From Dictyostelium discoideum (Eukaryota), in the NCBI GenBank assembly GCA_000004695.1, contig CM000153.2, positions 2,912,001-2,976,000 of the forward strand: a DNA stretch of 64,000 nucleotides, in the 5' to 3' direction. Below the pieces are notes generated by a model that worked only from the letters and a program-made list of their open reading frames with translations, ran no database searches and was not told the origin of the DNA. This document shows, in pieces, positions 2,765-48,755 of the stretch. Within the stretch, counting starts at the first letter, position 1; each line of letters starts with the position of its first letter. Both the position numbers and the translations under genes were made by a program.

Positions 2765-2971
2765 ATATGTTTCAATGTGTATTTGATGGGTTTTTTTATA
2801 TTTAATGATGGAATATAGGCTTGAGTGAATAGTATCAGACTCTTATTAGGGAAAAGTCAGATGTGGAAACTGCCTAGGTTTTTTCTCTGCAAACGAAATC
2901 TAAACTCACTAAAGATGGAATCCCTAATGAATCGGATTGAAATCCGAATGCAAGATCTTTTCATAACTTTT
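2765..2971. repeat. Copy 1 of a ~207-bp GC-richer non-coding element of unknown nature
   Basis: Direct near-identical repeat of 3381..3589, differing by a single T. It contains the hairpin cggattgaaatccg and an internal T-run (ctaggttttttct). No long ORF. Confidence 0.7.
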
Positions 2972-3340
2972 AAAATTCAATTCAATTACACTTAAATTAT
3001 AGTTACATATAGTGGATATGTTATGGGAATAAAAAAAAAAAATGAAAATTTTTTTTTTTTATTTTTTTTTCGTTTTTTTTTTCGTTTTTTTTTTTTTCAA
3101 AATTAATAATAAATTAAGGGGGTCACATAGAAAATAAAAAAATAAAAAAGATGACAAACCCACCATCACACTGCATAAAATTACTTTTCACTTTAATGCT
3201 GAAATTATTACATCCAACCCTTATGATAGTGTAATAGTATTTTAAAGTTTGGAAAAACAGTGAAGGTTATGAATTTTATTTACAGTTTTTAAAATATTTT
3301 ATAATTTTTTTTTTTTTTTAAATTTAATAAAGAAATATTG

Positions 3341-3589
3341 GCCGTAGTGAATAGTACCTGACTCTTATAAGAGAAAAACCATATGTTTTCAATGTGTATT
3401 TGATGGGTTTTTTTTTATATTTAATGATGGAATATAGGCTTGAGTGAATAGTATCAGACTCTTATTAGGGAAAAGTCAGATGTGGAAACTGCCTAGGTTT
3501 TTTCTCTGCAAACGAAATCTAAACTCACTAAAGATGGAATCCCTAATGAATCGGATTGAAATCCGAATGCAAGATCTTTTCATAACTTT
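3341..3589. repeat. Partial 40-bp module (3341..3380) plus copy 2 of the ~207-bp element
   Basis: 3341..3380 (gccgtagtgaatagtacctgactcttataagagaaaaacc) resembles the internal segment at 2822..2861. 3381..3589 is near-identical to copy 1. Confidence 0.7.
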
Positions 3590-3676
3590 AAAAAATAATT
3601 TCAACTTTTGCTAAACTAATGTTTTGTCCAAACACTTGTTATGGGTTTTACAAAACTTTTCATTTTTTCATTTTTC

Positions 3677-5295: not shown

Positions 5296-6326
5296 TTAAA
5301 AAAAAGAAAAAAAAAAAATAATGAAAAAAAAAAAAAAAAAAAGGAAAAGGTTGTGGTGTAAAATTTGTAAATTGTTTAAGTGTTCGATAAAAATAATAAA
5401 AAATAAAAAATTAAAAAATCAAGTAGGGTGTGTGTGTTGTTGTTGTTAATGATCAATCAAATTGAATTTAATTTCGATGGGTGAGTAAACACACACCAAA
5501 AATGTGGGTGAAAGTGTGGAATATTCATAATTTTTAAAAAACTAAGATCATAAACAAAATAAATAAATAAAAAAATAATTAAAAAAAAAAAAAAAAAAAA
5601 AATTATAAAAATGATTGGTTTACTAAGGTATTAAGAATTAAATATCAACATAAATTGTGCTAAAAATAGAATTTCAAAAAAAAAAAAAAAAAAAAAAATG
5701 GTTGTTGAAAATTTTCCATTTACACACACACAAAAAGAAATGATGATTTTTATTTTATTTTTTTTTTAAATTGATTAAGATTTTTTTTTTATTATATACA
5801 TATACATATTTAAAAAATTTTAATTTAAAAAAATAAATTAAAAAATAAAAAGATGATTTTAATAATTGATTTATAAAAAAAAAAAAAAAAATAATAATAA
5901 TAATAATAATAATATAAAATTTTAATTATTATAATGATTAAAAAATAAAAAGAATAAAAAAAAATCAATTTTACTACAATAAAATTCATTTTAATATAGA
6001 GTGAAATAAAAAGCATCGATTCATAATCTAGTGATAATACCATTGGTACAAACTAAGAATTTTATTTTTAAATAATCTCAAAAAGTGAGATTAAAAATCA
6101 CCGAACTTGAGATTAAAAAAATATTTATTTTCCTTTTTATTTTGATTTTACTAATAATTTATTATATTAAATCAACAATAACAACAACAACACAACCACA
6201 ACCACAATAACAAAAACAACAACAACCACAACCACAATAACAAAAAATCACTTCCCCAATAATCAACACACTCAAAAAACTTTACACCCTTCTCTACCCA
6301 CTATTACCATTTGGGTGTTTTTATTA

Positions 6327-8837: not shown

Positions 8838-9849
8838 AAATAAATAAATTAATTAAATAATCAATTAATTTATTTATTTATTTATTTAATAGTTATTTCT
8901 TAATTCCAACAAAACCAATTGACTCAACTTTTTGAATTTTTTTCAATCCAACGGCTAAAAAAAAAAAAAAAATTTAAAAAAAAATAAAAAATGTGTAAAA
9001 AAATTTAAAAAAAATAAAAAATGTGTAAAAAAATTTAAAAAAAAAAAAAAAAAGTGAAGGATAAAAAAAAAAAAAAAAAAAAAAAATTATATAAAATAAA
9101 ATCAATCCCTTTTTTGGAGGTTCCCGAATAGAATATTTTAGAATGTATAACATAAATAAATAAATAAAATAAAAATAAAATAAAATAAAAAATAAAATAA
9201 AATAAATAAAAAAAATTAAAAAGAAAATAGAAAAAAAAAAAAAAAAAATTAAAAAAATAAAAAAAACCAACTCGCCACATAAAAATTTCAAATTTTTTTT
9301 TTTTTTAAATTTTTTTTTTTATAAATTTTTTTTTTTTTTTTTTTACTCATAAAAATTTTTTGTTTGTTATTCAACTAAAAAAAAAAAAAAAAAAAAAAAA
9401 TAAAAAATAAAAAAAACTTTTTTTTAAATTAAAACTACGCGCGATCTATCTCCCCACACTTTTTTCATTAAACAAGTAATTAATTGGTTTAAACCAGGAG
9501 AAAGAACAAACAAAAGTTTATTTCACTCTATTTCAATTTATTTATATATATACATATTTTTTTTTTTTTTTTGTAAATTTTCATTCATTCATTCATCCAT
9601 TCATTCAAACAAATAATAATAAATAATATTATATATGTACTAAAAAAATAAAATAAAAATAAAACAAAAACAAAAACAAAAACAAAAAAGAATCAAATTA
9701 AAGCAAACACAATCAAATTTAGAAAACTAATTTCATTCGATTTGTTTGTTTTTCATTTTTTTTTTTAAAAATTTAATTTATAAAAAAAAAAAAATAAAAA
9801 AAAAGTTCCCACTTCCATCAATTTATTTTTAAAAAAAAAAATCAAAGCA

Positions 9850-10740
9850 ATGACACCACCTAATGTCCCCGATGTTGGTAAGATTTCAATTTAACTATTT
9901 TTACATATTTTTATTTTTTTTATTTTTCTCAAAAAGAAACTAACAACTTTTTTTTTTTTTTTTTTTTTTTTCTATCTCTTTCTGTAAACACAGAAATGGG
10001 TATTGATAGAGTTAATAATGAAGATGATTCATTAAATAATATTTATAATCCATCAAAAGATCCAAATTATATAAAGTTAGTAAATGTAAGCTATTATTAT
10101 TATTATTTTTTTTTATTTTTTTATCATATAGTTTTTTATTATTTTTTATAAAGTATGTTAACAACAACAATAATTAAAAATTAATATTATATCTAGGTTT
10201 TAACTGAACTTAAATCAAATGGAATTAGTGATTCTGATCCAACATTTACTTCAATCTTACAAATTACTAAACTATATTTAATGAATAAAACTAATAGTGG
10301 TATCAATAATAATGGTGTCAATAATAATAATGGTAATAACAATAGTAATAATGATAATATAGTTGAATTATTTAAAGCACAAGTTGAATCATATAAATAT
10401 ATATCTAGAAATTTACCAATACCAGTTGGAGTTTTACAAAAGATGTCACCAATTTTAGAGAATTCACCACATGTACCATCATTTAAAGAGGAATTATTAA
10501 ATTTGAAATATTATCCAAAGGGATTAATTAAATTGGATCAAAATAATAACCCTATCACTACAAACACAATGGCATATCAACAATTGAGTTGTAACCAAAG
10601 AATGATTCAACAACAAAAAGAGAGAATACAACAAGAACAACAACAAGCACAACAACAAGAGCAAATTAGAATTTTACTACAAGAGAAACAATTAAGACAA
10701 ACTGAAACTTTAAATAATACAAATAATAATAACAATAATA

Positions 10741-10829
<89 letters not shown>

Positions 10830-10847
10830 AGCGCAAATGGTAATAAT

Positions 10848-10880
<33 letters not shown>

Positions 10881-13800
10881 ACAAACACAAATGGTAATAA
10901 TAATAATAATAATAATAATGAAATTGAAACATTAACAAAAGAAGAAGAATTAGAAAAAGAAAAAGAAATACAAAGATTAAGAGATTTACAAAAACCAATA
11001 ATTTATAAGAGTTGTATACCAGCAAGTGTTGAAAATATTAAAGGTTTACCAGAGGCTATTCATTCTATAAATGAGAGAGAAATGAAAATTCAAGCAAAAG
11101 TGATAACACGTATTGATGAATTGAAGGAGATACCAACTCATTATTTACCAACTGATGTTAGAATTAGATCAGAGATTGAGAGTAAACAATTGAAACTATT
11201 GGAATTACAAAGAAAACTTCGTAATGATGTATCGTTAGAGATGGAGGATCAAGTATTGATACGTTCAATTCAAAACAATAGCAAGGGATATGATGACAAT
11301 GATTACAATCTCTACGTACGTTCAATTCCACGTTTAATCAATAGACCTATCGATCAAACTAGTTCAATCTACGATACTACTACAACTCAATTACCAGAGA
11401 GTATATTGGTGACAAATAAAAAGAAATTCTTGGAAGCAATTGCAATTCATGCAAGAGATTTCAAAGTGTTTCATAGTAACAATGAGAAATTTCTTCGTCA
11501 AAATGTTATCAAAGCAATACATCGTTATCATAAAGAGAAAGAAAAGAGAGAGATTGAACGTTTATCAAAGGAACGTATTCGTTTACTTAAAGCACGTGAT
11601 ACCGAAGGTTATAGAGATCTTTTAGCAAAAACAAAGAATGAACGTTTAGAAATGCTTTTAGGTGAAACTGATTCCCTCTTAAGTAGTATTCATCAATTAA
11701 TGGAAAAAGAACAAACTGAAAAAAGAGCACGTGAATTAGAAGAAGAATTAAAACAAAATGAAGAACAATTAAATGATCATAATGGTACAAATACTAATAA
11801 CAACAATACCACCACCACTACCACCACTACTTCTACTACAACATCAACATCATTATCAAATGAAGGTCAACCAATTGCAAATATAACTTCACCACTCCAA
11901 TCAACTACAACTATTTTAGCAAAGAAATCAAATAATTTAGTGATTGAACAACCAGATCTTATGACTGGTGGTAAATTAAAAGAATATCAAGTAACTGGTT
12001 TAGAATGGTTAATTTCATTGTATACACGTAATTTAAATGGTATTTTAGCCGATGAAATGGGTCTTGGTAAAACTGTACAAACCATTGCATTCATTTCATT
12101 CCTTTATGAACGTATGAATGTTAGAGAGCCATTCTTGGTAGTAGCACCATTGTCAACCATTAGTAATTGGGTATCAGAGTTTGCACGTTGGTCACCAAAA
12201 CTTCATGTGATCGTTTACAAGGGTAAACAAGATGAGAGAAGAGAGACAGCAAGAACCATACCAAGGAATGCATTTTGTGTAGTTATCACCTCTTTTGAAT
12301 ATATCATAAAGGATAGAAAAACATTGGGTAGGGTTCATTGGATCTATATTATCATTGATGAAGGTCATCGTATCAAAAATAAAAATAGTAAACTCTCTGT
12401 ACAATTACGTCAATATCATAGTAGAAATAGATTACTACTCACAGGTACACCATTACAAAATGATTTGGGTGAGTTGTGGGCATTGTTAAACTTTTTGTTA
12501 CCAACTATTTTCAATTCAGCTGATACTTTCCAAAATTGGTTCAATGCACCATTCCAAGCAAAGGGTAAGAATTTAATCAATGTCAACGAAGAGGAGTCTT
12601 TGATCATTATCAATCGTCTCCATCAAGTTTTAAGATTTTTCTTATTACGTCGTTTGAAATCAGATGTAGAGAGCCAACTTCCAGACAAGAAGGAAAAAGT
12701 TATCAAATGTAATATGAGTGCACTTCAAATTGCAATGTATAGATCATTGGTAGAGTATGGTGTACTCCCAATCGATCCAGATTCAAAGGAGGGTAGAAGT
12801 GGAAGATTGAAAATGAAAGGTTTCAATAATATCGTTAAACAACTTCAAAAGATTTGCAATCATCCTTACCTCTTTAAAGATGAATGGGATATCAATGAGG
12901 ATCTCATTAGAACCAGTGGTAAATTCGATACTATGGACCAAATTCTAACGAAAATGCATGCCTCCAAACATCGTGTTCTCATTTTCACTCAAATGACAGA
13001 GGTTATCAATCTAATGGAGGAGTATTTCTCTTTGAAAGAATGGACTTTTCTTCGTTTGGATGGTTCAACTAAACCAGAGGAACGTGCTCATTTGGTTGTC
13101 GAATGGAATCGTCCTGATTCACCATTTTGGATTTTCGTACTCTCAACTCATGCCGGTGGTTTAGGTATGAATTTACAAACTGCCGATACTGTAATCATTT
13201 TCGATTCCGATTGGAATCCACAAATGGATCTTCAAGCTCAAGATAGATGTCATCGTATTGGTCAAACTAATTCTGTGTCGGTGTTTCGTTTAATCTCTGC
13301 CAACTCTATCGAAGAGAAAATTCTAGGTAGAGCCACCGATAAATTGGAGATCGATGCAAAGATTATTCAAGCCGGTATGTTTAACACTCATTCCAACGAT
13401 CAAGAAAGACGTGCAAAATTGGAACAATTCCTTCATGGTTTCCCCAATAATACTTTGGATGAAGTACCAGTGGATCTAAAGGAAATCAATAAATTGATTG
13501 CTCGTGATGACTTTGAATTCAAACAATTCCAAGAGATGGATAAAGAACGTTTGAAAGTGGATCAAGCAAATTCAAAGAAAACTAGACAACCAATTAAACC
13601 ACGTCTAATGATCGAAAAAGAATTACCTGAATGGGTTTTGGCAACTCCTGTCACCGATAAGGATGAAGATATCGCTGGTAAGAAACGTTCAACCGCCATT
13701 GCTTCTGCCAATAGTTTTGTTCATGATAATTTAACCGATAATCAATATGCTAGAATGATTGAAAAGAATATGACCTTTGAACAGTATAAAGCTCATTTAG

Positions 13801-14921
13801 AGGCAAAGAAATTAAAGAATGGCAAATCTAAAAAAGATGGTGAGAAAAGTAAAAAGAAAAAAGGTAAAAGTAGAGGTAGAAAGAATAAATCTGATGATGA
13901 AGACTCTTCCGATGATGAACTTGATGATGAAGGTATTTCATCTGATGATGATGATAATAATATTAATAATAATAATAATAATAATGATAATAATAATAAA
14001 AACAATAATAATAATGATGATGAAGAAACTGGTGCTATTCAAAAACAAATCGTTGAACGTCGTCGTGCTACCCCTCAACAACGTAAACAACAACGTCAAC
14101 AACAACAAGAAAAACAAAATCATGAAAATAATAGTGATAATGAAAATCAAGATGATATTATTCAAGTTGATGATCATCCAACTAATGGTATTGAAAATAG
14201 TAGTAACAATAATAATAATGATGATAATAATAGTAATGGTAATAGTAATCAACAACAACAACAACAACAATCCAATAATGGTGAAACACCAACACCTGCT
14301 AAAAAAGGTAGAGGTAGACCAAGATTATCAAATAATCCAACTCCAATTAAAAGAAAATTAGATGATCTTAAGGGTAAATCTGATGATAGTCCAAAACCAT
14401 CAAAGAAATCTTTAATGTCTGAAACAGAAACGAGTGACAACGAACAATCAATGGATTCTGGTGATAATAGTAATAATAATAATAATAATAATAACAGTAA
14501 TAATAATAATAATAACAATGAAAAAAATAATAATAGTAATGGTGAACCAAGTGAAAATGGTAGTCAAGAAAATGTAAATGGTAATGGTAATGTGGCTTCT
14601 ACTGCTGCAACAAATGGTACATCAGTTCATACTCCAGGTAAAAGAGGTAGAAAGAAGAAGATTAGACCAAACCCTGAAGATGAAGAAAAGGATAAAGATA
14701 AAGAAAATGAAAATGAAAATGAAAATGAAAAGGAAAAGGGAAATGAAAAAGATAAGGATCCAACTTCAACCACTTCTCCTACCACAACTACCACTTCAAC
14801 TTCAGCAGGCACTTCTTCTGGTTCATCATCATCAGTTTTAAATACCCCACTTTCTCCTGAATCTCCTTTTACAACTAGATCAGGTAGAACAAGATTTCCA
14901 AAAAATTCAACTGAACAATAA
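9850..14921 (+). CDS. SWI2/SNF2 (Brahma/Snf2-like) chromatin-remodeling ATPase, about 1615 aa
   Basis: Main exon 10197..14921. It contains an HSA-like region, the SNF2_N DEAD-like helicase LKEYQVTGLEWLISLY...DEMGLGKTVQTIAF and DEGHRIKN, and the helicase-C motifs [41 protein letters not shown]. A SnAC-like region and AT-hooks (KKGRGRPR, GKRGRKKK) follow; no bromodomain is seen. Proposed 5' exons are 9850..9877 (ATG...GATGTTG|gtaag) and 9994..10085, with phases 1 and 0 fitting. Confidence in the two small 5' exons is lower, about 0.45. Confidence 0.85.
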
Positions 14922-15171: not shown

Positions 15172-15388
15172 AAGTTATGACCAAACTCTTAGGATCATTT
15201 CTAGAGTATCGTCTATTAAAATTATTCATCAATAATTTTTCCTCTTTCACAGCTAGGATGATGATATACACTCACTACACGAAAGCGTGAAACCGTTATT
15301 ATCGAATGATTCATTTATTCTTTATTAATATTGATGACCGTCTAATTCAGGGATGAATTGGTTGTGTGGTGGGATTCGTACTGGCTCT
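15172..15388 (+). ncRNA. U3 small nucleolar RNA gene, copy A
   Basis: The 5' region UAUGACCAAACUCUUAGGAUCAUUUCUAGAGUAUCGUC matches the conserved U3 GAC/A'/A boxes (yeast UAGGAUCAUUUCUAUAGGAAUCGUC, human GGGAUCAUUUCUAUAG). Box C' is GGAUGAUGAUA, box B-like GCGUGAAACCG (human GCGUGAAGCCG), and box C UUGAUGACCGU. The gene ends at a T7 run (15388..15394). A DUSE motif TCCCATAA lies at 15113..15120, about 55 nt upstream. Confidence 0.8.
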
Positions 15389-15540: not shown

Positions 15541-16150
15541 ATGGGTAATTTTTTTTTTTTAAACAACAAGAAAAGGAAATTTCAATTGTTGTAGTAAACA
15601 AAGAAAGAGAACTTGATGTTTTTTTGGTATGTTTATTTTATTTTTTTCTAAATTTTTTTTTTCATAGCACTATATCGAAACTAATTACCAATTTATTATA
15701 TGTATAATATAGAACGTCTATGCAAATTCAAGTGATCAATTAATTGGTGAGAAAATTTACAAGAAAGGCGATATTGAAGAATTGGTTGGTACCAATAGTG
15801 GTCATTATTCAATTATCATTGATAGCAATGGTGAATCCGATGACGACCAACATCCAGTTGGTATTGAAACCCATTTGGTAATAAAGAGACCAAACATTTC
15901 CAATGAAACTGGTTTTGGTAGTTTCGCACATAGGAACTATAATTCAGATAAATTAATTAAAACAGTAAAAGTTGGTAAAGCACTTTTATTACATACAAAA
16001 GAATATGTTGAGGCTGATAATTGTAACAAATTTTTCATTCTTGTTAAACATTTTAATGATTTATTTTATAAATTCATTCAAGAACAATGTAGTGGTGACA
16101 TTTACTGGGTAGAAAGAATAATTGCCATAACTATGCAAGATTTTGCTTAG
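15541..16150 (+). pseudogene. LRAT/H-rev107 (PLAAT)-like NlpC/P60-superfamily gene, copy 1, apparently disrupted
   Basis: Two exons, 15541..15626 and 15713..16150. Exon 2 encodes GDIEELVGTNSGHYSIIIDSNGESDDDQHPVGIETHLV, resembling H-rev107 [26 protein letters not shown]. Exon 1 has a T12 run that shifts the frame relative to copy 2 (stop after 17 codons), and the internal ATG is ATT here. A 1-bp shorter G-run (tgggt versus tggggt) removes the catalytic NCHNYA motif, giving ...YWVERIIAITMQDFA*. Confidence 0.55.
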
Positions 16151-16528
16151 AATATTTGCATTTATCATGGCCTGATTCTGTTGTATAACCAACCGATGAC
16201 TATCCATTTTTATTGGATGTTTTAAAAATCCAAAAATGTCCATCGATTGCAACAAACCAATCATAAAAATTTCCCTAAAACATTTGAGAAAAAATAAAAA
16301 AAAAAAAAAAAAAAAAAATAATAATAATAATAAATTATATTCTCATAGTAATTAATTAAATTAAAAATTAATTTATAACATGATTTTTAATAAAATTAAT
16401 TTTCATATCTTTTTTGAATAAATTATAGAATTTTTTACAATTAATAAAAAAGGCCAAAAACAGATAATTGTTATTTTGTTTTATTTTATATTATTTTTTT
16501 TTTTTACTTTAATATATTAAAAACCTAT

Positions 16529-18101
16529 TTAGTTGAATTCTTTTCCAAATACTTTTTCAAAGTAAGATATTAATGTATAATTATTAGATGATGATTGGTT
16601 TTTTAAAGTTTCTTCAAATATTTCTAGATTTGGTTTAAAATTTAAGTCTTTAATTATAAAATCAATAAAGTCAATATATCCATATTGAAAAGAAGTCTCG
16701 AATATACCTTCAAAACCGATTGTTGCAATTTCATCTTTATATTTTTTATAAATATTAAGGTTTCCATAAATTCGAGCAGCATTTTTAGTTACTGCAATTA
16801 ATTCAAAGAAAGGTCCATATGGTCGTGTTTGTTCATTTAGTTGTTGTTGTCTTGAATTTATTAAAAATTCAATTGTTGATATATCATTTTTTTTAACGAT
16901 TTCCAAAACTGTTTTAATCTCAACAAAATTTCCATATCTATTATATCCATTGTTTGAAAATATCATTTCTTTCATTTTATCAAATTGACCATTTAAATAA
17001 TAGCAAGTAAATAATCCTTCATTATCATCAGTTTTAATTTTATGGGGATAATTTTTTAAAATATGATATTTGTTTTCAACTTCTAGATAAATATATCTTA
17101 AACTTTCAATTTTACTATTTTCAATACAATCTATTAGTTTGTTTAAAGTTGATACTTGAATTTCTTTATATGGTTTTCTTGTAAATTGTTGGTCAATATA
17201 TTTTTTTAAATTAATATTATTTTTGAAATCATTAAAATTTTCAATCATAAAATTAATATCACATTTTAAAATTGAAATATTTTTTTGACTAGATAATAAT
17301 GTATATTGTTGATAATAATTATTTTTAAAATGGTTTGCAATTTTATAATTTGAAATTATTTGACCAAAACAAAATGATTTTTCAATTACAGTTGGTCCAG
17401 AAAGTTTTTCAAGTTGATTTTTAATATAATCAAACATCAATGGTGATTTAATTGATTCAATCACTGATGTATTACAAATTGGCGGAAGACTCTCAAATGC
17501 CATCTTAACCAACTCGATATCATCTGATAATATGACCTCTTTAATTAAGTCGATTTTAATATTTGGAATTGATTCAGAATAAATAGCTGGAATTTGTTCG
17601 ATTGCATCTTTATAATATTGATGAATTAATTCTTTTTGATTTTTAACAAAACGAAATTTACTATCTGAAAATTTACCAGTTTGTACTTCTTGAAATGGAT
17701 GTTTGTATTCAATTCTACCAAAAGAAGAAAATTTTTCAGGATAAAATATACCAAACATATTTGGATGAAGACATGAACTAGGTTGTGATTTTAAATCTTC
17801 ATTTGATATCATTTTGCTATTGTATTTAAATTTATGAAATAAAAAATTTTCAATTATACTTTCTTTTTTAAAAATGTGTATTATTGCCATTTCATAAATT
17901 GATTTAACTCTTTCATCATTTGGGTTGAATTCACCAATTGTTGTTGATAACTCTTGTTTTGTAAATGATTTTGAAATTTCATTTAGTTCATTTTGATTTT
18001 TAAAACTTTTAAAACTTTTAATTTCATTTATATATTTTATTACTTGGTTTTGATTATTTTTCATTTGATCATTCTTTGAAGGTAATATAAATGGATTGTT
18101 A

Positions 18102-18172
<71 letters not shown>

Positions 18173-18194
18173 TTTATTATCATTATTTTTATTA

Positions 18195-18273
<79 letters not shown>

Positions 18274-19348
18274 CATTATTATTATTATTTTTATTACTAC
18301 TATTGTTGTCGTCATTCAAAATTGACTTTAATTTTGGTTTATATGAATCACTAAAACAATTTAAATTATTTAACCTTAAAATTGTTTTACATAAATCTAT
18401 AATTGAAGATAAAGGATAAGAGAATGCATAAAGTTGAATACAAAGTTTTGTATTTTTTGAATTTAATGATTCATTTGGTGTTTCGTTGATAAATTGTGGT
18501 ATTTTAATCTTTTCAATTAAAAATTCAATCTTTTCATTAAAGTTATTATTATCTTTAGTGAAATAAATATTTTCAGGTGAAAATACAGTTTCAAACCATA
18601 TACTATTTAATTGCGATTCTGTAATATCATCATTTGATTTAAATAATTGATTGAAAATATATTGTGCAACTTTTAATGACCCAATTGCAATAGCATTTTT
18701 AAAAAAGTTAAATGATAATTTTTTACCATTTGAATAATAATAATATTCATTAATTACTTTCATCGATGCAACATTATCATAAACCAATGATAAATATTTA
18801 ATTTCTCTTAATGATTTTAATTTTTTATTTTTAATACCATCATCATTAATTTCTGTTGACAATGGTGGCAATTGAAAATATAATTTATAATTTTTAAATA
18901 AATTTTTAAAAAATTCTTCATCATCTTTGAAAACATTGAAAATTGATGATTTATAATAAACTCTTATTTTTTTAAATTTTTTAGCATCTAATTTATCTCT
19001 TGATAAATTTATAGGTAAATAAGTTTTATTTAAATCACCTCTCGAGTTTGAATCGGTTTGCTGATCATCTTCTGGTGAATTACTACTGAATATTAATTGT
19101 TCACCTCTGATAACTTTACATTTTAATAATTCTGTATAACCATTTTTTATCATCCATCCTACTCTAACAATTTCTTCATATCTATAAATCCCATTTCTAA
19201 ATTCTGATTTTAAACTTGTGAATATTAAATTTTTTATATATTTATTTCTAAAAACAGAAAAAAATAATTTTTCAATGTCATAATTATTATTATGATTATT
19301 ATTATTTTCAATCTTTAATTTTTTTTTATAACGAAATGGATCATCCAT
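16529..19348 (-). CDS. Hypothetical protein of 939 aa with a long poly-N tract; family not recognised; paralog 1
   Basis: ATG-initiated uninterrupted ORF. About 90% identical, with indels, to the 21402..24143 ORF. An (AAT)n tract of about 190 nt at 18108..18300 encodes N/D/K. Confidence 0.6.
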
Positions 19349-19642
19349 TTATGATTTTGATTTCAAAAAAAAAAAAACAAAATTTTTTTTTTTTTTTTAA
19401 GATTTTTTTTTTTTTTTGATCAATAAAAAATAAATAATAAAGAAAAAAAAATCTTTTTAAAAAATAAAAAAAAAATGTAATAAAAACACAAAAAGAAAAT
19501 TTAATTTTAAACTTTTTTCTAAAAATTTTATACTTTTTTCTTTTTATTTTTTCGTTATTTTTTAATTTTTTTTTTAATTTTTAATCCCATAATTGTATTA
19601 ATTAATTGATATAAATAAAAGAAATGATTTATTGAAATTTAA

Positions 19643-19859
19643 AAGTTATGACCAAACTCTTAGGATCATTTCTAGAGTATCGTCTATTAAAATTATTCAT
19701 CAATAATTTTTCCTCTTTCACAGCTAGGATGATGATACACACTCACTACACGAAAGCGTGAAACCGTTATTATCGAATGATTCATTTATTCTTTATTAAT
19801 ATTGATGACCGTCTAATTCAGGGATGAATTGGTTGTGTGGTGGGATTCGTACTGGCTCT
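19643..19859 (+). ncRNA. U3 snoRNA gene, copy B
   Basis: Near-identical to copy A, with one t-to-c change in the box C' region. DUSE TCCCATAA at 19585..19592. T7 terminator at 19859..19865. Confidence 0.8.
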
Positions 19860-20276
19860 TTTTTTAATTAATTTAATGAAACAAAAATAATTTTATAAAA
19901 AAATTGGTAAATCAGATTTCATCCAATAAAGGCAATAATTAATGATGTTATTTTATTAATAAAAATTATTATTTTCATTTTTTTTTTTTAAATTTTAAAT
20001 TAAATATAATAAAAAAAAACTAATTAATTTTTGATGATATTTCTTGATTTTTTTTTTATTTTGTGAAAATAAAATTAAAGGAAGTAAAAAAATAAATAAT
20101 TAAAAAAAAAAAAAAAATTTTTATATATTTTATTTTATTATTTTGACACATTTATATACACTTTTTTTTTTTTATAATATATTTTTTTTTTTTTTTAATA
20201 ATTTTTTTTTTTTTTTTTAGTTATTTTTTTTTTTTTTTCTGATGTTAATAATTAGTAAAAATTAAAATTAAATAAA

Positions 20277-20920
20277 ATGGGTAATTATTTTTTTAAACAA
20301 CAAGAAAAGGAAATGTCAATTGTTGTAGTAAACAAAGAAAGAGAACTTGATGTTTATTTGGTATGTTTATTTTATTTTTCAAAATTTTTTTTTTTTTCAC
20401 AGTACTATATTGAAACTAACTAATAATTTATTAATGTATAATACAGAACGTCTATGCAAATTCAAGTGATCAATTAATTGGTGAGAAAATTTACAAGAGA
20501 GGTGCTATCGAAGAATTAGTTGGTACAAATAGTGGTCATTATTCAATTGTCATTGATAGAAATGGTGAGTAGGATGACGACCAACATCCAGTTGGTATTG
20601 AAATCCATTTGGTAATGAAGAGACCATACATTTCCAATGAAACTGGTTTTGGTAGCGCCCCAAGAAACTATATTTCAGATAAATTAATTAAAACAGTAAA
20701 AGTTGGCAAAGCACTTTTATTACAAACAAAAGAATACGTCGAGGCTGATAATTTTAAAAAAGGTGTCATTCTTGGTCAACATTTCAATAATTTATTTTAT
20801 AAATTCATTCAAGAACAATGTAGTGGTGACATTTACTGGGGTAGAAAGAATAATTGCCATAACTATGCAAGATTTTGCTTAGAATATTTGCATTTATCAT
20901 GGCCTGATTCTGTTGTATAA
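20277..20920 (+). pseudogene. LRAT/H-rev107-like gene, copy 2, carrying an in-frame TAG
   Basis: Two exons, 20277..20360 (MGNYFFKQQEKEMSIVVVNKERELDVYL) and 20447..20920. Exon 2 retains the C-terminal catalytic-type motif GDIYWGRKNNCHNYARFCLEYL (compare NCEHF of H-rev107). It has TAG at 20567..20569 (NGE*DDD) where copy 1 has TCC (Ser). Confidence 0.55.
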
Positions 20921-21239
20921 CCAACCGATGACTATCCATTTTTATTGGATGTTTTAAAAATCCAAAAATGTCCATCAATTGCAACAAACCAAACCTCTAA
21001 TCAAACAAATTAAAAAAACAATAAACTTTTATTCTTTATTATTATTTTTTTTTTTCATAAAATGATATCATTTATCATTAAATATAATAATATTATATTA
21101 TTTAATTTATTTTATTTATTTTAAAATCTTTTAAATGATGTTTAAGGTAGTTTTTCACACATTTTATATATGATTGTTTAAAGTTAAATAAAATTTTATT
21201 GGTATGGTGTTTGTATTTATTGTGTTTTTTTTTGCTTGT

Positions 21240-21401: not shown

Positions 21402-24143
21402 TTATTTTAATATTGAAAAACCTATTTGGTTGGGTTCTTTTCCAAATACTTTTTCAAAGTAAGATGTTAATGTATAATTATTAGATGATGATTGATTTTT
21501 TAAAGTTTCTTCAAATCTAGAAAGATTTGGTTCAAATTTTAAATCTTTAATTATAAAATCAATAATGTCAATATATCCATATTGAAAAGAAATATAGAAA
21601 TCACCTTCAAAATCCATTGTTTCAAAATAATCTTTAAGGTTTTTTAAAATATTAAGGTTTCCATAAATTCGAGCAGCATTTTTAAGTGCCCTAATTAATT
21701 CAATGAAAAGTTCTTTTGGTCTTGTTTGTTGTGTTTGATCATTTTGTTGTTGTAGTTGTTGTCTTGAATTTATTAAAAATTCAATTGTTGATATATCATT
21801 TCTTTTAACGATTTCAAAAATTGTATAAATTTCAACAAATCTAACACATCCATTTTCTGAAAATATCATTTCTTTCATTTTATCAAATTGACCATTTAAA
21901 TAATAGCAAGTAAATAATCCTTCATTATCATCAGTTTTAATTTTATGAGGATAATTTTTTAAAACATGATAATGGCATTCAACTTTTGGACAAATATATC
22001 TTAAACTTTCAATTTTACTATTTTCAATACAATCTATTAATTTATTTAAAGTTGAAACTTGAATTTCTTCATTTGATTTTCTTGTAAATTGTTGACCAAT
22101 GTATGTATTTAAATTAATATTATTTTTGAAATCATTAAAATTTTCAATCATAAAATTAATATCACATTTTGAAATTGAAATATTTTCTTGACCAGAAAAT
22201 AATGAATATTGTTGATAATAATAATTTTTAAAATGGTTTGCAATTTTATAATTTGAAATGATTTGATCGAAACAAAGTGAATTTTCAGTTGGTTTAGAAA
22301 GTTTTTCAAGTTGATTTTTAATATAATCAAACATCAATGGTGATTTAATTGATTCAATCACTGATGTATTAAAATTTAGTGGATGAAGACTCTCAAATAC
22401 CATCTTAACCAACTCAATATCATCTGATAATATGACCTCTTTAATTAAGTCTATTTTAATATTACCAGAAAAGTGAGCTGGAATTTGTTCGATTGCATCT
22501 TTATAATATTGATGAATTAATTCTTTTTGATTTTTAACAAAACAAAATTTACTATCTGGAAATTTACCAATTTGTACTTTTTCAAATGGATTTTTATAAT
22601 CAATTTTAGCAAAAGAAGAAAATTTTTCAATTTGTATTTTTTCATGATTTTTATAATCACTACTAATAAAAGCAAAAGGTGAAGAAATTTTTTCAAGATA
22701 AAATATACCAAACATATTTGGATGAAGACATGAACTAGGTTGTGATTTTAAATCTTCATTTGATATCATTTTGCTATTGTATTTAAATTTATGAAATAAA
22801 AAATTTTCAATTATACTTTCTTTTTTAAAAATGTGTATTATTGCCATTTCATAAATTTTTTTAACTCTTTTATCATTTGACTTGAATTCACCGATTTTTG
22901 TTGATAACTCTTGTTCTGTAAATGATTTTGAAATTTTATTTAATTCATCTAGATTTTTAAAACTTTTAAAACTTTTAATTTCATTTATATATTTTATTAC
23001 TTGGTTTTGATTATTTTTCATTTGATCATTTTTTAAAGATAATGTAAATGGATTGTTATTTTTATTATTATTATTATTACTATTGTTGTCATTCAAAATT
23101 GATTCCAGTTTTGATTTATATGAATCATTATTTAAAATATTTAGTAGTAAAATTGTTTTACATAAACCTATTATTAAAGATAAAGGATAAGAGAATGCAT
23201 AAAGTTGAATACAAAGTTTTGTATTTTTTGAATTTAATGATTCATTTGGTGTTTCGTTGATAAATTGTGGTATTTTAATTTCTTCAATTAAAAATTCAAT
23301 CTTTTCATTAAAATTATTATTATCTTTAGTGAAATAAATATTTTCAGGTACAAATACGGTTTCAGACCATATACTATTTAATTGTGATTCTGTAATTTCA
23401 TCATTTGATTTAAATAATTGATTGAAAATATATTGTGCAACTTTTAATGACCCAATTGCAATAGCATTTTTAAAAAAGTTGAATGATAACTTTTTACCAT
23501 TTGAATAATAATAATATTCATTAATTACTTTAATTGATGCCACATTATCATAAACCAATGACAAATATTTAATTTCTCTTAATGATTTTAATTTTTTATT
23601 TTTAATACCATCATCGTCATCATTGTCATCATCATTAATTTCTTTTTCTTGATTTTTTTGATTTTGTTCTGGTAATTGAAAATATAATTTATAATTTTTA
23701 AATAAATTTTTAAAAAATTCTTCATCATCTTTGAAAACATTGAAAATTGATGATTTATAATAAACTCTTTTTTTTTTAAATTTTTTAACATCTAATTTAT
23801 CTCTTGATAAATTTATAGGTAAATAAGTGTTATCGAAATCACCTCTCAATTTTGAATCATAATAAGTTTGTGGACCATCTTCTGGTGAATTACTACTGAA
23901 TATTAATTGTTCACCTCTGATAACTTTACATTTTAATAATTCTGTATAACCATTTTTTATCATCCATCCCACTCTAACAATTTCTTCATATCTATAAATC
24001 CCATTTCTAAATTCTGATTTTAAACTTGTGAATATTAAATTTTTTATATATTTATTTCTAAAAACAGAAAAAAATAATTTTTCAATATTGTTATTATTAT
24101 TTTCAATTTTTAATTTTTTTTTATAACGAAATGGATCATCCAT
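21402..24143 (-). CDS. Hypothetical protein of 913 aa; paralog 2 of the 16529..19348 gene
   Basis: ATG ORF. It shares the N-terminus MDDPFRYKKKLKIENNNN...IEKLFFSVFRNKYIKNLIFTSLKSEFRNGIYRYEEIVRVGWMIKNGYTELLKCKVIRGEQLIF with paralog 1. The central poly-N is mostly deleted, and there is an extra roughly 30-aa insertion (FAFISSDYKNHEKIQIEKFSSFAKIDYKNP). Confidence 0.6.
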   Translation of the reverse strand: MDDPFRYKKKLKIENNNNNIEKLFFSVFRNKYIKNLIFTSLKSEFRNGIYRYEEIVRVGWMIKNGYTELLKCKVIRGEQLIFSSNSPEDGPQTYYDSKLRGDFDNTYLPINLSRDKLDVKKFKKKRVYYKSSIFNVFKDDEEFFKNLFKNYKLYFQLPEQNQKNQEKEINDDDNDDDDGIKNKKLKSLREIKYLSLVYDNVASIKVINEYYYYSNGKKLSFNFFKNAIAIGSLKVAQYIFNQLFKSNDEITESQLNSIWSETVFVPENIYFTKDNNNFNEKIEFLIEEIKIPQFINETPNESLNSKNTKLCIQLYAFSYPLSLIIGLCKTILLLNILNNDSYKSKLESILNDNNSNNNNNKNNNPFTLSLKNDQMKNNQNQVIKYINEIKSFKSFKNLDELNKISKSFTEQELSTKIGEFKSNDKRVKKIYEMAIIHIFKKESIIENFLFHKFKYNSKMISNEDLKSQPSSCLHPNMFGIFYLEKISSPFAFISSDYKNHEKIQIEKFSSFAKIDYKNPFEKVQIGKFPDSKFCFVKNQKELIHQYYKDAIEQIPAHFSGNIKIDLIKEVILSDDIELVKMVFESLHPLNFNTSVIESIKSPLMFDYIKNQLEKLSKPTENSLCFDQIISNYKIANHFKNYYYQQYSLFSGQENISISKCDINFMIENFNDFKNNINLNTYIGQQFTRKSNEEIQVSTLNKLIDCIENSKIESLRYICPKVECHYHVLKNYPHKIKTDDNEGLFTCYYLNGQFDKMKEMIFSENGCVRFVEIYTIFEIVKRNDISTIEFLINSRQQLQQQNDQTQQTRPKELFIELIRALKNAARIYGNLNILKNLKDYFETMDFEGDFYISFQYGYIDIIDFIIKDLKFEPNLSRFEETLKNQSSSNNYTLTSYFEKVFGKEPNQIGFSILK

Positions 24144-24421
24144 TTATGATTTATTAATAATTTAAAAAAAAAAAAAAAAAAAACAATAAAAAAAAAAAAC
24201 TTTTTTAATAAAAAAAACTTAATTTAATAAAGAAAAAAAAAAATAAAGAAATAATAAAGAAAAAAAACCCTTAATTTGAAAAAAAAAAAAATTTTAAAAA
24301 AAAAAAAAAAAAAATGGAGGGAAAAAAATTAGGTTTTCATTTTTTTTTTTTTTTTTTTTTTAATCCCATAATTTCTTTAATTAATTTATATAAATAAAAC
24401 AAATGTTTTATTGAAATTTAA

Positions 24422-24638
24422 AAGTTATGACCAAACTCTTAGGATCATTTCTAGAGTATCGTCTATTAAAATTATTCATCAATAATTTTTCCTCTTTCAC
24501 AGCTAGGATGATGATACACACTCACTACACGAAAGCGTGAAACCGTTATTATCGAATGATTCATTTATTCTTTATTAACATTGATGACCGTCTAATTCAG
24601 GGATGAATTGGTTGTGTGGTGGGATTCGTACTGGCTCT
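24422..24638 (+). ncRNA. U3 snoRNA gene, copy C
   Basis: Near-identical to copies A and B. DUSE TCCCATAA at 24364..24371. T-run terminator at 24638..24644. No LRAT-like gene follows this copy. Confidence 0.8.
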
Positions 24639-25305: not shown

Positions 25306-26234
25306 ATGGGTAAAAGTAATACGATAGTATTATCCAATGAAAAGGATATACAATTAAGAATTCAACAATTAGAAGAAAGAAAAGAGAAAAGAAAGAATGT
25401 TAAACTTTTATTTAGTCCAATTAAAACAACAAAATACTTTTTATATATTTTAAAAGATACCCTTGTCAGTGGAATTCGATATTTTCAAACTAGACCATTC
25501 TTATTATTCTTTATTGCATTATTTGCATCATTAACTTTTATTGCAGTTTATGTACCAGGTGAACATCAAAAGGTAAATAAATAACAACAATAATAATAAT
25601 AATAATAGTAATGCTATATATATATGTATATTAAAATTTTAATATATTATTTTTTTTATTTTTTTTATCAAAAGTATATGGGTAAATATTCAGATTTAAT
25701 TTCAGATTGTATTTGGTGGGTTGGGTTAGGTGTATTATCATCAATTGGATTAGGAACAGGATTACATACATTTGTATTATATTTAGGACCACATATTGCC
25801 AAGGTAACATTGGCAGCAACCGAGTGGAATAGCGTAAATTTCAATGTTTATGGTGCCAATAGTTTTATTCAACCAGCAACAGCAATGATTGGTGGTGTTT
25901 CATTTTGGATGATTTTACAAAAAGTGCAATGGGCAGCACTATTTTGGGGTGCAGGTACAGCCATTGGTGAATTACCTCCATACTTTGTCGCTCGTACTGC
26001 AAGATTAAAAGGTTTGAAATTAGAACAAGAAAAGAAACTAAAAGAACAACAAGAAAAACCAATCGATGAAAAAGATCAACCAAAGAAAGGTCTTTTAGAA
26101 AGATTATCTGAAAAAGTTCCAGCTTTAATTGGTAATCTTGGTTTCTTTGGTATTTTAGCTTTTGCTTCTGTATGTTTTTTTTACTTTTTTTTTTTTTTTT
26201 CATCACCAATCATCCATTTTATATTAATATTAAT

Positions 26235-26270
<36 letters not shown>

Positions 26271-26857
26271 TATTGTTTTTATTTATTTAGATACCAAATC
26301 CATTATTTGATTTAGCAGGTATTACATGTGGTCACTTTTTAGTACCATTTTGGAAATTCTTTGGTGCAACATTCATTGGTAAAGCAGTTGTTAAAGCACA
26401 TATTCAAGCATGTTTTGTAATTTTAGCTTTTAATATGGAAACACTTACAATGGTTATTTCTTTTATTGAAGATAAAATTCCATTCCTTAAAAATAAAATT
26501 CAACCAATTTTAGAAAAAGAAAGACAAAAATTAAATTCAACTGTATCAGCAAATTCACCAGTAAGTTATTTTTTATTTTTTTATTTTTTTTTTTTGATCA
26601 CTTTAAAATCTAAAAAATATCTACAAATACTAATATATTAATTTTTTTTTTTTTTTTTTTTTTAAAAAAAAATATAGAAAAGTTTAGTAGGACTTGCTTG
26701 GGATTGTGTTTTATTTTTAATGATTTCTTATTTCTTAATGTCAATTGTTGACTCAAGTGTTCAAGAATATCTTATCGAAAAAGATAATAAAAAGATTGAA
26801 TTATTGAAATCAAAACTCGAAAAACAACAACCAAAAGAAACTAAAAAAACAAAATAA
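25306..26857 (+). CDS. vmp1: Vacuole membrane protein 1 (VMP1/TMEM49 ortholog), about 404 aa, 4 exons
   Basis: Exons 25306..25572, 25675..26169, 26291..26560 and 26678..26857, with GTAAAT/GTATGT/GTAAGT donors, AG acceptors and all junctions in phase 0. The protein aligns along its length with human VMP1: GLGVLSSIGLGTGLHTFVLYLGPHIAKVTLAATEWNSVNF, GTAIGELPPYFVARTARL, GFFGILAFAS|IPNPLFDLAGITCGHFLVPFWKFFGATFIGKA. Confidence 0.9.
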
Positions 26858-26886
26858 AGATTTTAAATAAATTATCATTCTTTTTA

Positions 26887-28746: not shown

Positions 28747-28789
<43 letters not shown>

Positions 28790-29856: not shown

Positions 29857-29898
<42 letters not shown>

Positions 29899-45138: not shown

Positions 45139-48755
<3,617 letters not shown>

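What the first reader, a model, noticed from the sequence alone, without database searches (positions are those of the whole stretch)
15541..20920. Both tandem copies of an LRAT/H-rev107-like (NlpC/P60) gene carry different disabling lesions while the neighbouring large paralogs stay intact
Seen in sequence. Copy 1 has a T12 run in exon 1 that shifts the frame relative to copy 2 and ATT where copy 2 has its internal ATG. It also has a 1-bp shorter G-run (15 nt upstream of 16120) that replaces the conserved C-terminal NCHNYARFC catalytic-type motif with ...VERIIAITMQDFA*. Copy 2 keeps NCHNYA but has TAG (20567..20569) where copy 1 has TCC. Established knowledge: the LRAT/PLAAT family uses the Cys of the NCEHF motif as its nucleophile, together with the His of the N-terminal HWAIY segment. 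Inference: either both copies are decaying after duplication, or there are homopolymer sequencing errors and/or stop-codon readthrough. Two independent substitutions are needed to go from TCC to TAG, which argues against simple error for copy 2.
Basis: partly seen in the sequence, partly recalled or inferred. Interest (0 to 1): 0.5.

Follow-up and report, generated by a model that had tools for sequence, protein, structure and literature searches.

The report
Two decayed tandem hydrolase-like pseudogenes
Two neighbouring copies of a small Dictyostelium gene for a papain-like Cys/His enzyme are real, recently decayed pseudogenes in the laboratory strain, although other wild strains keep one working copy at this site; this is ordinary gene-family turnover, but it shows that three reference gene models are artefacts.

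Summary
Copy 1 (15541-16266) has +2 nt in a T12 run just after codon 3, a -1 frameshift in a G-run (GGG, 16107-16109), and ATT for Met13.

Both copies carry TAA (16186-16188 and 20918-20920) where all six intact or near-intact copies I aligned from other strains have TCA. The full-length product is 216 aa.

A second AX4-like assembly differs from the window only at four intergenic sites (three homopolymer lengths, one substitution) and reproduces every lesion. Sequencing error is therefore very unlikely.

At the same chromosomal site, two other D. discoideum strains each keep one intact copy and one broken by different lesions. AX4 keeps two intact paralogues elsewhere.

The shared TAA lies in a 148-nt tract where the two copies differ at 1 site, against 33/391 upstream. 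This indicates gene conversion.

Verdict: ordinary unprocessed pseudogenes in a fast-turnover family, which the reference annotates as three protein-coding genes.

The parts
15177..15385 (+). U3 snoRNA gene heading repeat unit 1
   Evidence: Rfam RF00012, 86.1 bits (gathering score 34), full-length match. Nearly identical to the other two copies.
15541..15626 (+). Copy 1, exon 1 (86 nt rather than 84). It contains the T12 run at 15549-15560 (+2 frameshift) and ATT at 15579-15581 in place of Met13.
   Evidence: Frame 0 stops after 17 codons. The correct frame is closed upstream by TAA at 15546-15548.
15627..15712 (+). Copy 1 intron (GTATGT...TAG), splice sites intact
   Evidence: Alignment with intact copies.
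15713..16266 (+). Copy 1, exon 2. Lesions: -1 frameshift at GGG 16107-16109, the resulting stop at 16148-16150, and the shared TAA at 16186-16188. The 3' end has diverged.
   Evidence: The AX4 model DDB_G0285207 (165 aa, P0009) ends at 16150.
16529..19348 (-). Large paralogue 1: an intact 939-aa ORF with long poly-Asn tracts, known only from Dictyostelium
19648..19856 (+). U3 snoRNA gene heading repeat unit 2
   Evidence: Rfam RF00012, 85.8 bits.
20277..20360 (+). Copy 2, exon 1 (84 nt, intact, MGNYFFKQQEKEMS...)
20447..21013 (+). Copy 2, exon 2. Lesions: in-frame TAG at 20570-20572 and the shared TAA at 20918-20920. The ancestral stop is at 21011-21013. The catalytic-type NNCHNYARFC motif is retained.
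   Evidence: AX4 splits this copy into DDB_G0285171 (69 aa, P0020) and DDB_G0285195 (101 aa, P0014).
16110..16260 (+). Copy 1 side of the probable gene-conversion tract. The copy 2 partner is about 20842-20992. The tract contains the shared TAA.
   Evidence: 1/148 differences in the tract against 33/391 in the rest of exon 2 (Fisher p = 2.5e-4). Three derived states, including TAA, are shared only by the two AX4 copies.
21402..24143 (-). Large paralogue 2: an intact 913-aa ORF (DDB_G0285173)
24427..24635 (+). Third U3 snoRNA gene (start of a truncated third unit). No small gene follows it; vmp1 lies downstream.
   Evidence: Rfam RF00012, 88.6 bits. tblastn finds no third copy in the window.

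Best explanation
Both copies are genuine unprocessed pseudogenes in the AX4/NC4 lineage of Dictyostelium discoideum. They belong to a small, fast-evolving family known only from dictyostelids. The full-length product is about 216 aa, starts MGNYFF, and has invariant His59, His82 and an NNC165H motif. The predicted fold is a circularly permuted papain-like (NlpC/P60 / LRAT / PPPDE) Cys-His enzyme.

The genes sit in a tandem unit of about 4.7-4.9 kb, in the order U3 snoRNA gene, small gene, large orphan gene. I infer this sequence of events:
1. The tandem arrangement predates the divergence of the strains.
2. In the AX4 lineage a TCA->TAA nonsense mutation arose in one copy. Gene conversion of the last ~150 nt of coding sequence copied it into the other.
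3. Copy 2 also acquired a TAG. Copy 1 also acquired two homopolymer frameshifts.

No ATG-initiated ORF in either copy now joins the His residues to the Cys, so neither can make an active enzyme. The loss is probably tolerated because AX4 keeps two intact paralogues in another cluster.

Shown here: the lesions, their reproduction in a second assembly, intact alleles in other strains, the conversion-like tract, and the fold match. Inferred: the order of events, the enzymatic activity, and the tolerance through redundancy.
For: - Lesions mapped against six other copies, five of them intact.
- A second AX4-like assembly is identical at all lesion sites and differs at four intergenic sites (three homopolymer lengths, one substitution), so it is not a copy of the same record.
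- At the same site (between the SNF2-type gene and vmp1), strain ACTFIR has an intact first copy (P0018, 216 aa) and a second copy with a +1 A frameshift. Strain ACTFIW has a rearranged first copy (an inverted segment, and NIF in place of NNC) and an intact second copy (P0001).
- D. cf. discoideum ACTFIZ has three intact tandem copies.
- AX4 paralogues DDB_G0292844 (212 aa) and DDB_G0292962 (213 aa) are intact. A third copy beside them carries stops and a frameshift.
- Conversion tract: 1/148 differences against 33/391, p = 2.5e-4, with AX4-only shared derived states including the TAA.
- dN/dS between the two AX4 copies is 0.44. This suggests constraint over much of their divergence and hence recent decay.
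- His59, His82, Asn164 and Trp159 are at least 90% conserved across 40 family members.
Against: - No transcript or protein data were available, so residual expression, or function as RNA or as fragments, is untested.
- I could not establish how independent the second assembly is (method and strain are unknown).
- Matching 'copy 1' and 'copy 2' between strains is positional only. The single full-length large gene of ACTFIR and ACTFIW is closer to AX4 large paralogue 2 than to paralogue 1, which implies unequal exchange.
- dN/dS is high (0.4-1.7) even among intact copies, so it does not separate live from dead copies.
- The enzymatic assignment rests on a predicted model and a motif. There is no significant match to Pfam or to PDB sequences. 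Foldseek found nothing significant.
Confidence: 0.88

Rival explanations
1. The lesions are sequencing or assembly errors in the reference (homopolymer miscalls at the T-run and G-run, base-call errors at the stops), and both genes are really intact.
For: Two of the lesions lie in homopolymers within a genome of about 22% GC. The two assemblies do disagree on the length of three other, intergenic homopolymer runs.
Against: A second assembly has a different chromosome length (5,576,411 bp against 5,450,249 bp) and differs at four other sites. It agrees exactly at T12, GGG, TAG and both TAA codons. Three of the five lesion sites are substitutions outside homopolymers. The TAG codon differs from the consensus at more than one base. 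Other copies in other strains also carry independent lesions.
Confidence: 0.04
2. The genes are still functional through recoding: stop-codon readthrough at TAG/TAA in copy 2, and programmed frameshifting or an unusual intron in copy 1.
For: The reading frame downstream of each lesion is still recognisable and has not degenerated much. The splice sites are intact. The AX4 annotation bridges the T12 shift with an intron.
Against: Copy 1 would need two frameshifts of opposite sign plus one readthrough. Copy 2 would need two readthroughs. The bridging 'intron' (15545-15570) is only 26 nt, inferred from gene span = CDS + 86 + 26 nt. From my own knowledge, that is far shorter than normal Dictyostelium introns. 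Intact homologues have ordinary sense codons at these sites and no recoding signal is conserved. The GTGAGT created at the TAG has no AT-rich intron behind it, and any splice of normal length would remove the invariant His75/His82 segment.
Confidence: 0.03
3. The truncated products annotated in AX4 (165 aa, 69 aa, 101 aa) are themselves functional, for example as non-catalytic or split proteins.
For: They are annotated as protein-coding in two assemblies. dN/dS between the copies is below 1.
Against: The 165-aa model lacks the NNCH motif and depends on a 26-nt pseudo-intron. The 69-aa and 101-aa models put His59 in one polypeptide and His82/Cys165 in the other, and the 101-aa model has no conserved start. 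The fragments correspond to no natural isoform in any other strain.
Confidence: 0.05

Closest known systems
PPPDE / DeSI (Peptidase_C97; PPPDE2 structure 2wp7)
   Different: No match to the Pfam model at E<=1. hhalign against a DeSI-1 sequence that I recalled from memory aligns only the 15-residue NC motif, with probability 1.3%. There is a second invariant His (His82 in xHLV) and a conserved MG N-terminus. The family is known only from dictyostelids.
LRAT / PLAAT (H-rev107) family and picornavirus 2A H-box/NC proteins
   Different: No PF04970 match. The spacing from the first to the second His is 23 residues; in PLAAT3 it is about 12, by my recollection of that sequence. There is no C-terminal hydrophobic anchor. 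Structural scores are lower than for PPPDE.
Unprocessed (duplicated) pseudogenes in tandem gene families undergoing birth-and-death evolution with gene conversion
   Same: Tandem duplicates retain intron and flanks. Each carries independent nonsense or frameshift lesions. One lesion is shared through a conversion-like tract. Functional alleles are present in some strains and absent in others.
   Different: Nothing unusual for this class. The only particular feature is that each repeat unit also carries a U3 snoRNA gene, which stays conserved.

Membership tests
LRAT/PLAAT (Pfam PF04970; PROSITE LRAT domain) | Significant match to the family's sequence profile | tested here: not met
   No Pfam family at E<=1 for the repaired copy 2 protein, and none of 40 relatives hits PF04970. 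hhalign against PLAAT3 (sequence recalled from memory) aligns 11 residues, probability 0.35%. UniProt's 'LRAT domain-containing protein' label on the paralogues is a source name, not tested here.
LRAT/PLAAT (Pfam PF04970; PROSITE LRAT domain) | Conserved His (H-box), second His or polar residue, and nucleophile Cys in an NC-x-x-F motif, in the order His...Cys | tested here: met
   His59 (GHYSIII), His82 (EIHLV) and Asn164 are at least 90% conserved in 40 sequences. Cys165 (NNCHNY/F) is invariant among close relatives and is replaced by Ser in a few distant ones.
LRAT/PLAAT (Pfam PF04970; PROSITE LRAT domain) | C-terminal hydrophobic membrane anchor (PLAAT1-4, LRAT) | tested here: not met
   The C-terminus ...DDYPFLLDVLKIQKCPSIATNQTSNQTN is polar. 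By my reading of the sequence there is no hydrophobic stretch.
Permuted papain-like NlpC/P60 superfamily (LRAT-like, YaeF/YiiX-like, PPPDE) | Papain-like alpha+beta core with the catalytic Cys on a helix C-terminal to the His-bearing beta-strands | tested here: met
Permuted papain-like NlpC/P60 superfamily (LRAT-like, YaeF/YiiX-like, PPPDE) | Thiol hydrolase or acyltransferase activity | not testable with these tools
   No biochemical data. No paper in the searched library mentions these gene IDs.
PPPDE/DeSI (Pfam PF05903) | Significant match to the family profile | tested here: not met
   No hit at E<=1. hhalign probability 1.3%.
Unprocessed pseudogene | Homology over the whole length to an intact gene with intron and flanks retained, plus disabling lesions relative to intact relatives | tested here: met
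   The intron is retained. Copy 1 has two frameshifts and one nonsense codon, and copy 2 has two nonsense codons. Intact 216-aa relatives exist.
Unprocessed pseudogene | Lesions are real rather than sequencing artefacts | tested here: met
   They are reproduced in a second assembly that differs at other sites. Raw reads were not available.
Unprocessed pseudogene | No functional product (no transcription or translation of a full-length protein) | not testable with these tools
   No RNA-seq or proteomics access.

The most novel reading that the evidence does not exclude
This family is restricted to dictyostelids and is not covered by Pfam. It varies in copy number between strains, has dN/dS near or above 1 among intact tandem copies, and has working alleles in some strains but not others at the same site. 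It could therefore be a conflict-type gene family (antibacterial, anti-cheater or self/non-self) of N-terminally lipidated Cys hydrolases. Under that reading, the complete loss of the chr4 pair in the laboratory lineage would be a strain-specific functional difference rather than neutral decay.
Probability: 0.1. Interest if true: 0.55.

Novelty: new member of a known kind. Interest (0 to 1): 0.25.

Why it matters
1. Annotation. Three AX4 protein-coding models are fragments of two pseudogenes: DDB_G0285207, DDB_G0285171 and DDB_G0285195. One of them depends on a 26-nt pseudo-intron. These models propagate into UniProt, EukProt and newer assemblies and should be re-typed as pseudogenes.

2. Family definition. 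The work defines the true full-length form (216 aa) and the conserved His/His/Cys residues of a small, uncharacterised dictyostelid family with a permuted papain-like fold that Pfam does not cover.

3. Evolution. It is a clean small example of a nonsense mutation apparently copied between tandem paralogues by gene conversion, and of a functional allele that is present in some strains of a model organism and absent in others.

None of this changes a general concept.

Tried and rejected
- Pfam scans of the repaired protein and of 40 relatives gave no relevant family. The only recurring hit was DUF6540, in 2 of 40 members at E 9e-4, which I did not pursue.
- Profile searches against PDB sequences gave nothing with the 9-sequence profile. 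The 40-sequence profile gave only non-significant 2A H/NC hits.
- The first AlphaFold2 run, with 9 close sequences, was too poor to use (pLDDT 50.9). Only the 40-sequence run was used.
- Foldseek against PDB and BFVD gave no significant match. The afdb50 library was unavailable.
- hhalign against single PLAAT3 and DeSI-1 sequences, recalled from memory, aligned only the NC motif.
- A search for a third copy in the window found none after the third U3 gene.
- There are no tRNA genes in the window.
- A literature search for the five gene IDs returned no paper. I could not find a paper describing the GCA_0548xxxxx assemblies, so their sequencing method is unknown.
- I considered whether the GTGAGT created at the TAG could be a new splice donor. 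I rejected this because no AT-rich intron follows it and any splice of normal length would remove the invariant His residues.
- dN/dS does not discriminate dead from live copies in this family.
Full report
**Context**

The window is Dictyostelium discoideum DNA of the AX4 type, with about 22% GC. The region lies between an SNF2-type ATPase gene (10281-14921) and vmp1 (25307-26858). The proteins annotated in AX4 as DDB_G0285207, DDB_G0285171, DDB_G0285195 and DDB_G0285173 are encoded exactly here.

The finding lies inside a tandem repeat of about 4.7-4.9 kb. Each unit carries, in this order:
- a U3 snoRNA gene on the + strand (Rfam RF00012, 86-89 bits; 15177-15385, 19648-19856, and a third at 24427-24635);
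- the small two-exon gene on the + strand;
- a large orphan ORF on the - strand (939 aa and 913 aa).

**Check of the observation**

I aligned the two copies with each other and with six copies from other genomes, and took exact coordinates.

Copy 1:
- Its T12 run (15549-15560) stands where all seven other copies have TTATTTTTTT. That adds 2 nt directly after codon 3.
- Frame 0 stops after 17 codons. The frame that continues the protein is closed immediately upstream by TAA (15546-15548).
- That frame has no ATG anywhere before the C-terminal tail.
- ATT replaces Met13 (15579-15581).
- GGG (16107-16109) replaces GGGG. This -1 shift swaps ...YWGRKNNCHNYARFC for ...YWVERIIAITMQDFA*, with the stop at 16148-16150.

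Copy 2:
- It keeps the NNCHNYARFC motif.

The intron splice sites are intact in both copies. The two large ORFs are uninterrupted.

Homologues in other Dictyostelium genomes are 216 aa long and continue ...WPDSVV-S-PADDYPFLLDVLKIQKCPSIATNQTSNQTN. Both window copies have TAA (16186-16188 and 20918-20920) where all six other aligned copies have TCA. The old frame is still readable downstream, to 21011-21013 in copy 2. The apparent normal stop after WPDSVV is therefore itself a nonsense mutation, present in both copies.

**Real lesions or errors?**

Locus L002 comes from a different assembly, GCA_054883475.1. Its chromosome is 5,576,411 bp, against 5,450,249 bp for the record that carries the AX4 RefSeq proteins.
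- It matches window 10615-30941 at 99.89%.
- The only differences are one substitution and three homopolymer length changes, all intergenic (24269-24296, 28749-28758, 29858-29866).
- All five lesion sites are identical.

The two records are therefore not copies of one another, yet they agree on every lesion. I could not find out how that assembly was made, so its independence is probable rather than proven. Three of the five lesion sites are substitutions outside homopolymers.

**Comparison with other strains**

At the same site (SNF2 gene ... vmp1):
- Strain ACTFIR (L003) has an intact first copy (P0018, 216 aa). Its second copy has a +1 A frameshift and a late TAA. The annotators hid the frameshift with an extra intron (P0007, 201 aa).
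- Strain ACTFIW (L001) has a rearranged first copy, with an inverted segment at L001 5346-5666 and NIF in place of NNC (P0017). Its second copy is intact (P0001).
- In both of these strains the second large ORF is reduced to a remnant (gene models of 122 and 132 aa). The remaining large gene is closer to AX4 paralogue 2 than to paralogue 1 (dS 0.09 against 0.13). The units have therefore been reshuffled, and orthology between copies is positional only.
- D. cf. discoideum ACTFIZ has three intact tandem copies at another site.

AX4 itself keeps intact paralogues DDB_G0292844 (212 aa) and DDB_G0292962 (213 aa) in a separate cluster. A third copy in that cluster is also riddled with stops and has a frameshift.

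Lesions are thus frequent, independent and strain-specific in this family. That is the pattern of birth-and-death evolution.

This depends on the ancestral codon. The other copies have TCA or TCG, and from TCG (ACTFIR copy 1) one C->A change suffices.

**Gene conversion**

Within exon 2 the two AX4 copies differ at 33 of 391 sites upstream of the G-run. They differ at only 1 of 148 sites from the G-run to near the end (Fisher p = 2.5e-4). The repeat finder reports the same contrast: 99% identity for 16107-16260 against 20839-20992, and 90% just upstream.

In that tract the two copies share three derived states found in none of the six other copies, and one of them is the TAA. The simplest reading is that the nonsense mutation arose once and was copied to the other paralogue by gene conversion. 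The alternative, two identical independent mutations plus two other identical changes, is much less likely.

**What the gene encodes**

Sequence evidence:
- Pfam gives nothing at E<=1 for the repaired protein or for 40 relatives.
- A profile search of 1.84 billion representative proteins finds only 36 at E<=1e-3.
- Of the ten I looked up, nine are dictyostelid proteins (Polysphondylium, Heterostelium, Cavenderia, Synstelium, Acytostelium, Dictyostelium) and one is an unnamed JGI metagenome protein. All are named 'hypothetical' or 'uncharacterized'.
- Across 40 members, His59 (GHYSIII), Gly78, His82 (xHLV), Trp159, Asn164 and Pro181 are at least 90% conserved. Cys165 (NC[HQ]xF) is conserved except for Ser in a few distant members. 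Most members start with Met-Gly.

Structure evidence:
- An AlphaFold2 model built on this alignment has pLDDT 75.6 and pTM 0.73.
- Foldseek gave no significant hit.
- The PDB sequence profile gave only non-significant 2A H/NC matches at the NC motif.

UniProt labels the intact AX4 paralogues 'LRAT domain-containing protein'.

Conclusion: the superfamily assignment is supported. Membership of LRAT/PLAAT proper is not, because there is no profile match, no C-terminal anchor, and PPPDE is the closer fold.

The mechanism is inferred, not shown: a Cys165 nucleophile activated by His59, acting as a thiol hydrolase or acyltransferase, possibly attached to membrane through N-myristoylation of Gly2.

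**Consequences of the lesions**

In copy 1 no ATG-initiated ORF covers the domain, and the NC motif is out of frame. In copy 2 the TAG separates His59 from His82 and Cys165. Neither copy can give the full enzyme.

The AX4 models are artefacts of forcing ORFs onto pseudogenes:
- DDB_G0285207 spans 610 nt for 165 codons plus a stop codon. That requires the real 86-nt intron plus a 26-nt 'intron' (15545-15570) that skips the T12 run.
- DDB_G0285171 (69 aa) and DDB_G0285195 (101 aa) are the two halves of copy 2 on either side of the TAG.

**Selection**

dN/dS is 0.44 between the two AX4 copies and 0.4-1.7 among other pairs. The three intact ACTFIZ copies give 1.3-1.7, though from few substitutions. 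The family evolves quickly even when intact. The large ORFs give 0.4-0.6. These values fit recent decay but do not prove it.

**Verdict**

The finding is real and the decay interpretation is right. Sequencing error and recoding are unlikely. This is ordinary pseudogenisation in a fast-turnover tandem family. Its value lies mainly in correcting the annotation and in defining an uncharacterised dictyostelid family of permuted papain-like proteins.

Noticed in passing
window 15177-15385, 19648-19856, 24427-24635 (+): Three near-identical, full-length U3 snoRNA genes (Rfam RF00012, 86-89 bits), one at the head of each tandem unit. They are the best-conserved part of the repeat. U3 genes sit in the same positions in strains ACTFIR and ACTFIW, and one lies upstream of the ACTFIZ triple cluster. 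There is none at the chr6-type cluster.
   Followed up: partly
window 15545-15570: The AX4 model DDB_G0285207 (MEKEISIVV...) can only be obtained by splicing out a 26-nt 'intron' that removes the T12 frameshift. I inferred this from the gene span (610 nt = 498 + 86 + 26). It is almost certainly a gene-prediction artefact.
   Followed up: yes
window 16529-19348 and 21402-24143 (-): The large paralogues (939 and 913 aa) are orphan proteins with very long poly-Asn tracts. They have no Pfam domain, and homologues were found only in Dictyostelium. In strains ACTFIR and ACTFIW the second one is reduced to a remnant of about 450 bp.
   Followed up: partly
L001 4962-6013: In strain ACTFIW the first small-gene copy is rearranged: the 5' half runs forward, a segment of about 320 nt is inverted (5346-5666), and then the 3' half runs forward. 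The catalytic NNC is changed to NIF.
   Followed up: partly
L005 6957-9694: In the AX4-like assembly the chr6-type cluster has three tandem family copies. Two are intact (DDB_G0292962 and DDB_G0292844). The third (8978-9694, annotated as 162 aa) has two in-frame stops, a frameshift and NKC in place of NNC.
   Followed up: yes
window 24269-24296, 28749-28758, 29858-29866: These are the only differences between the window and the second AX4-like assembly over 20 kb: one C/A substitution and homopolymer length differences of 1, 1, 10 and 9 nt, all intergenic.
   Followed up: yes
window 46892-47329: A long array with 9-nt periodicity (35 overlapping copies, 70-91% identity) lies in a region of strong negative GC skew (-0.50) and higher GC (0.29). 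It is probably a three-residue repeat in a minus-strand coding region. I did not examine it.
   Followed up: no
window 2791-3004 and 3410-3623: A direct repeat of 214 nt at 94% identity, 619 nt apart. I did not examine it.
   Followed up: no
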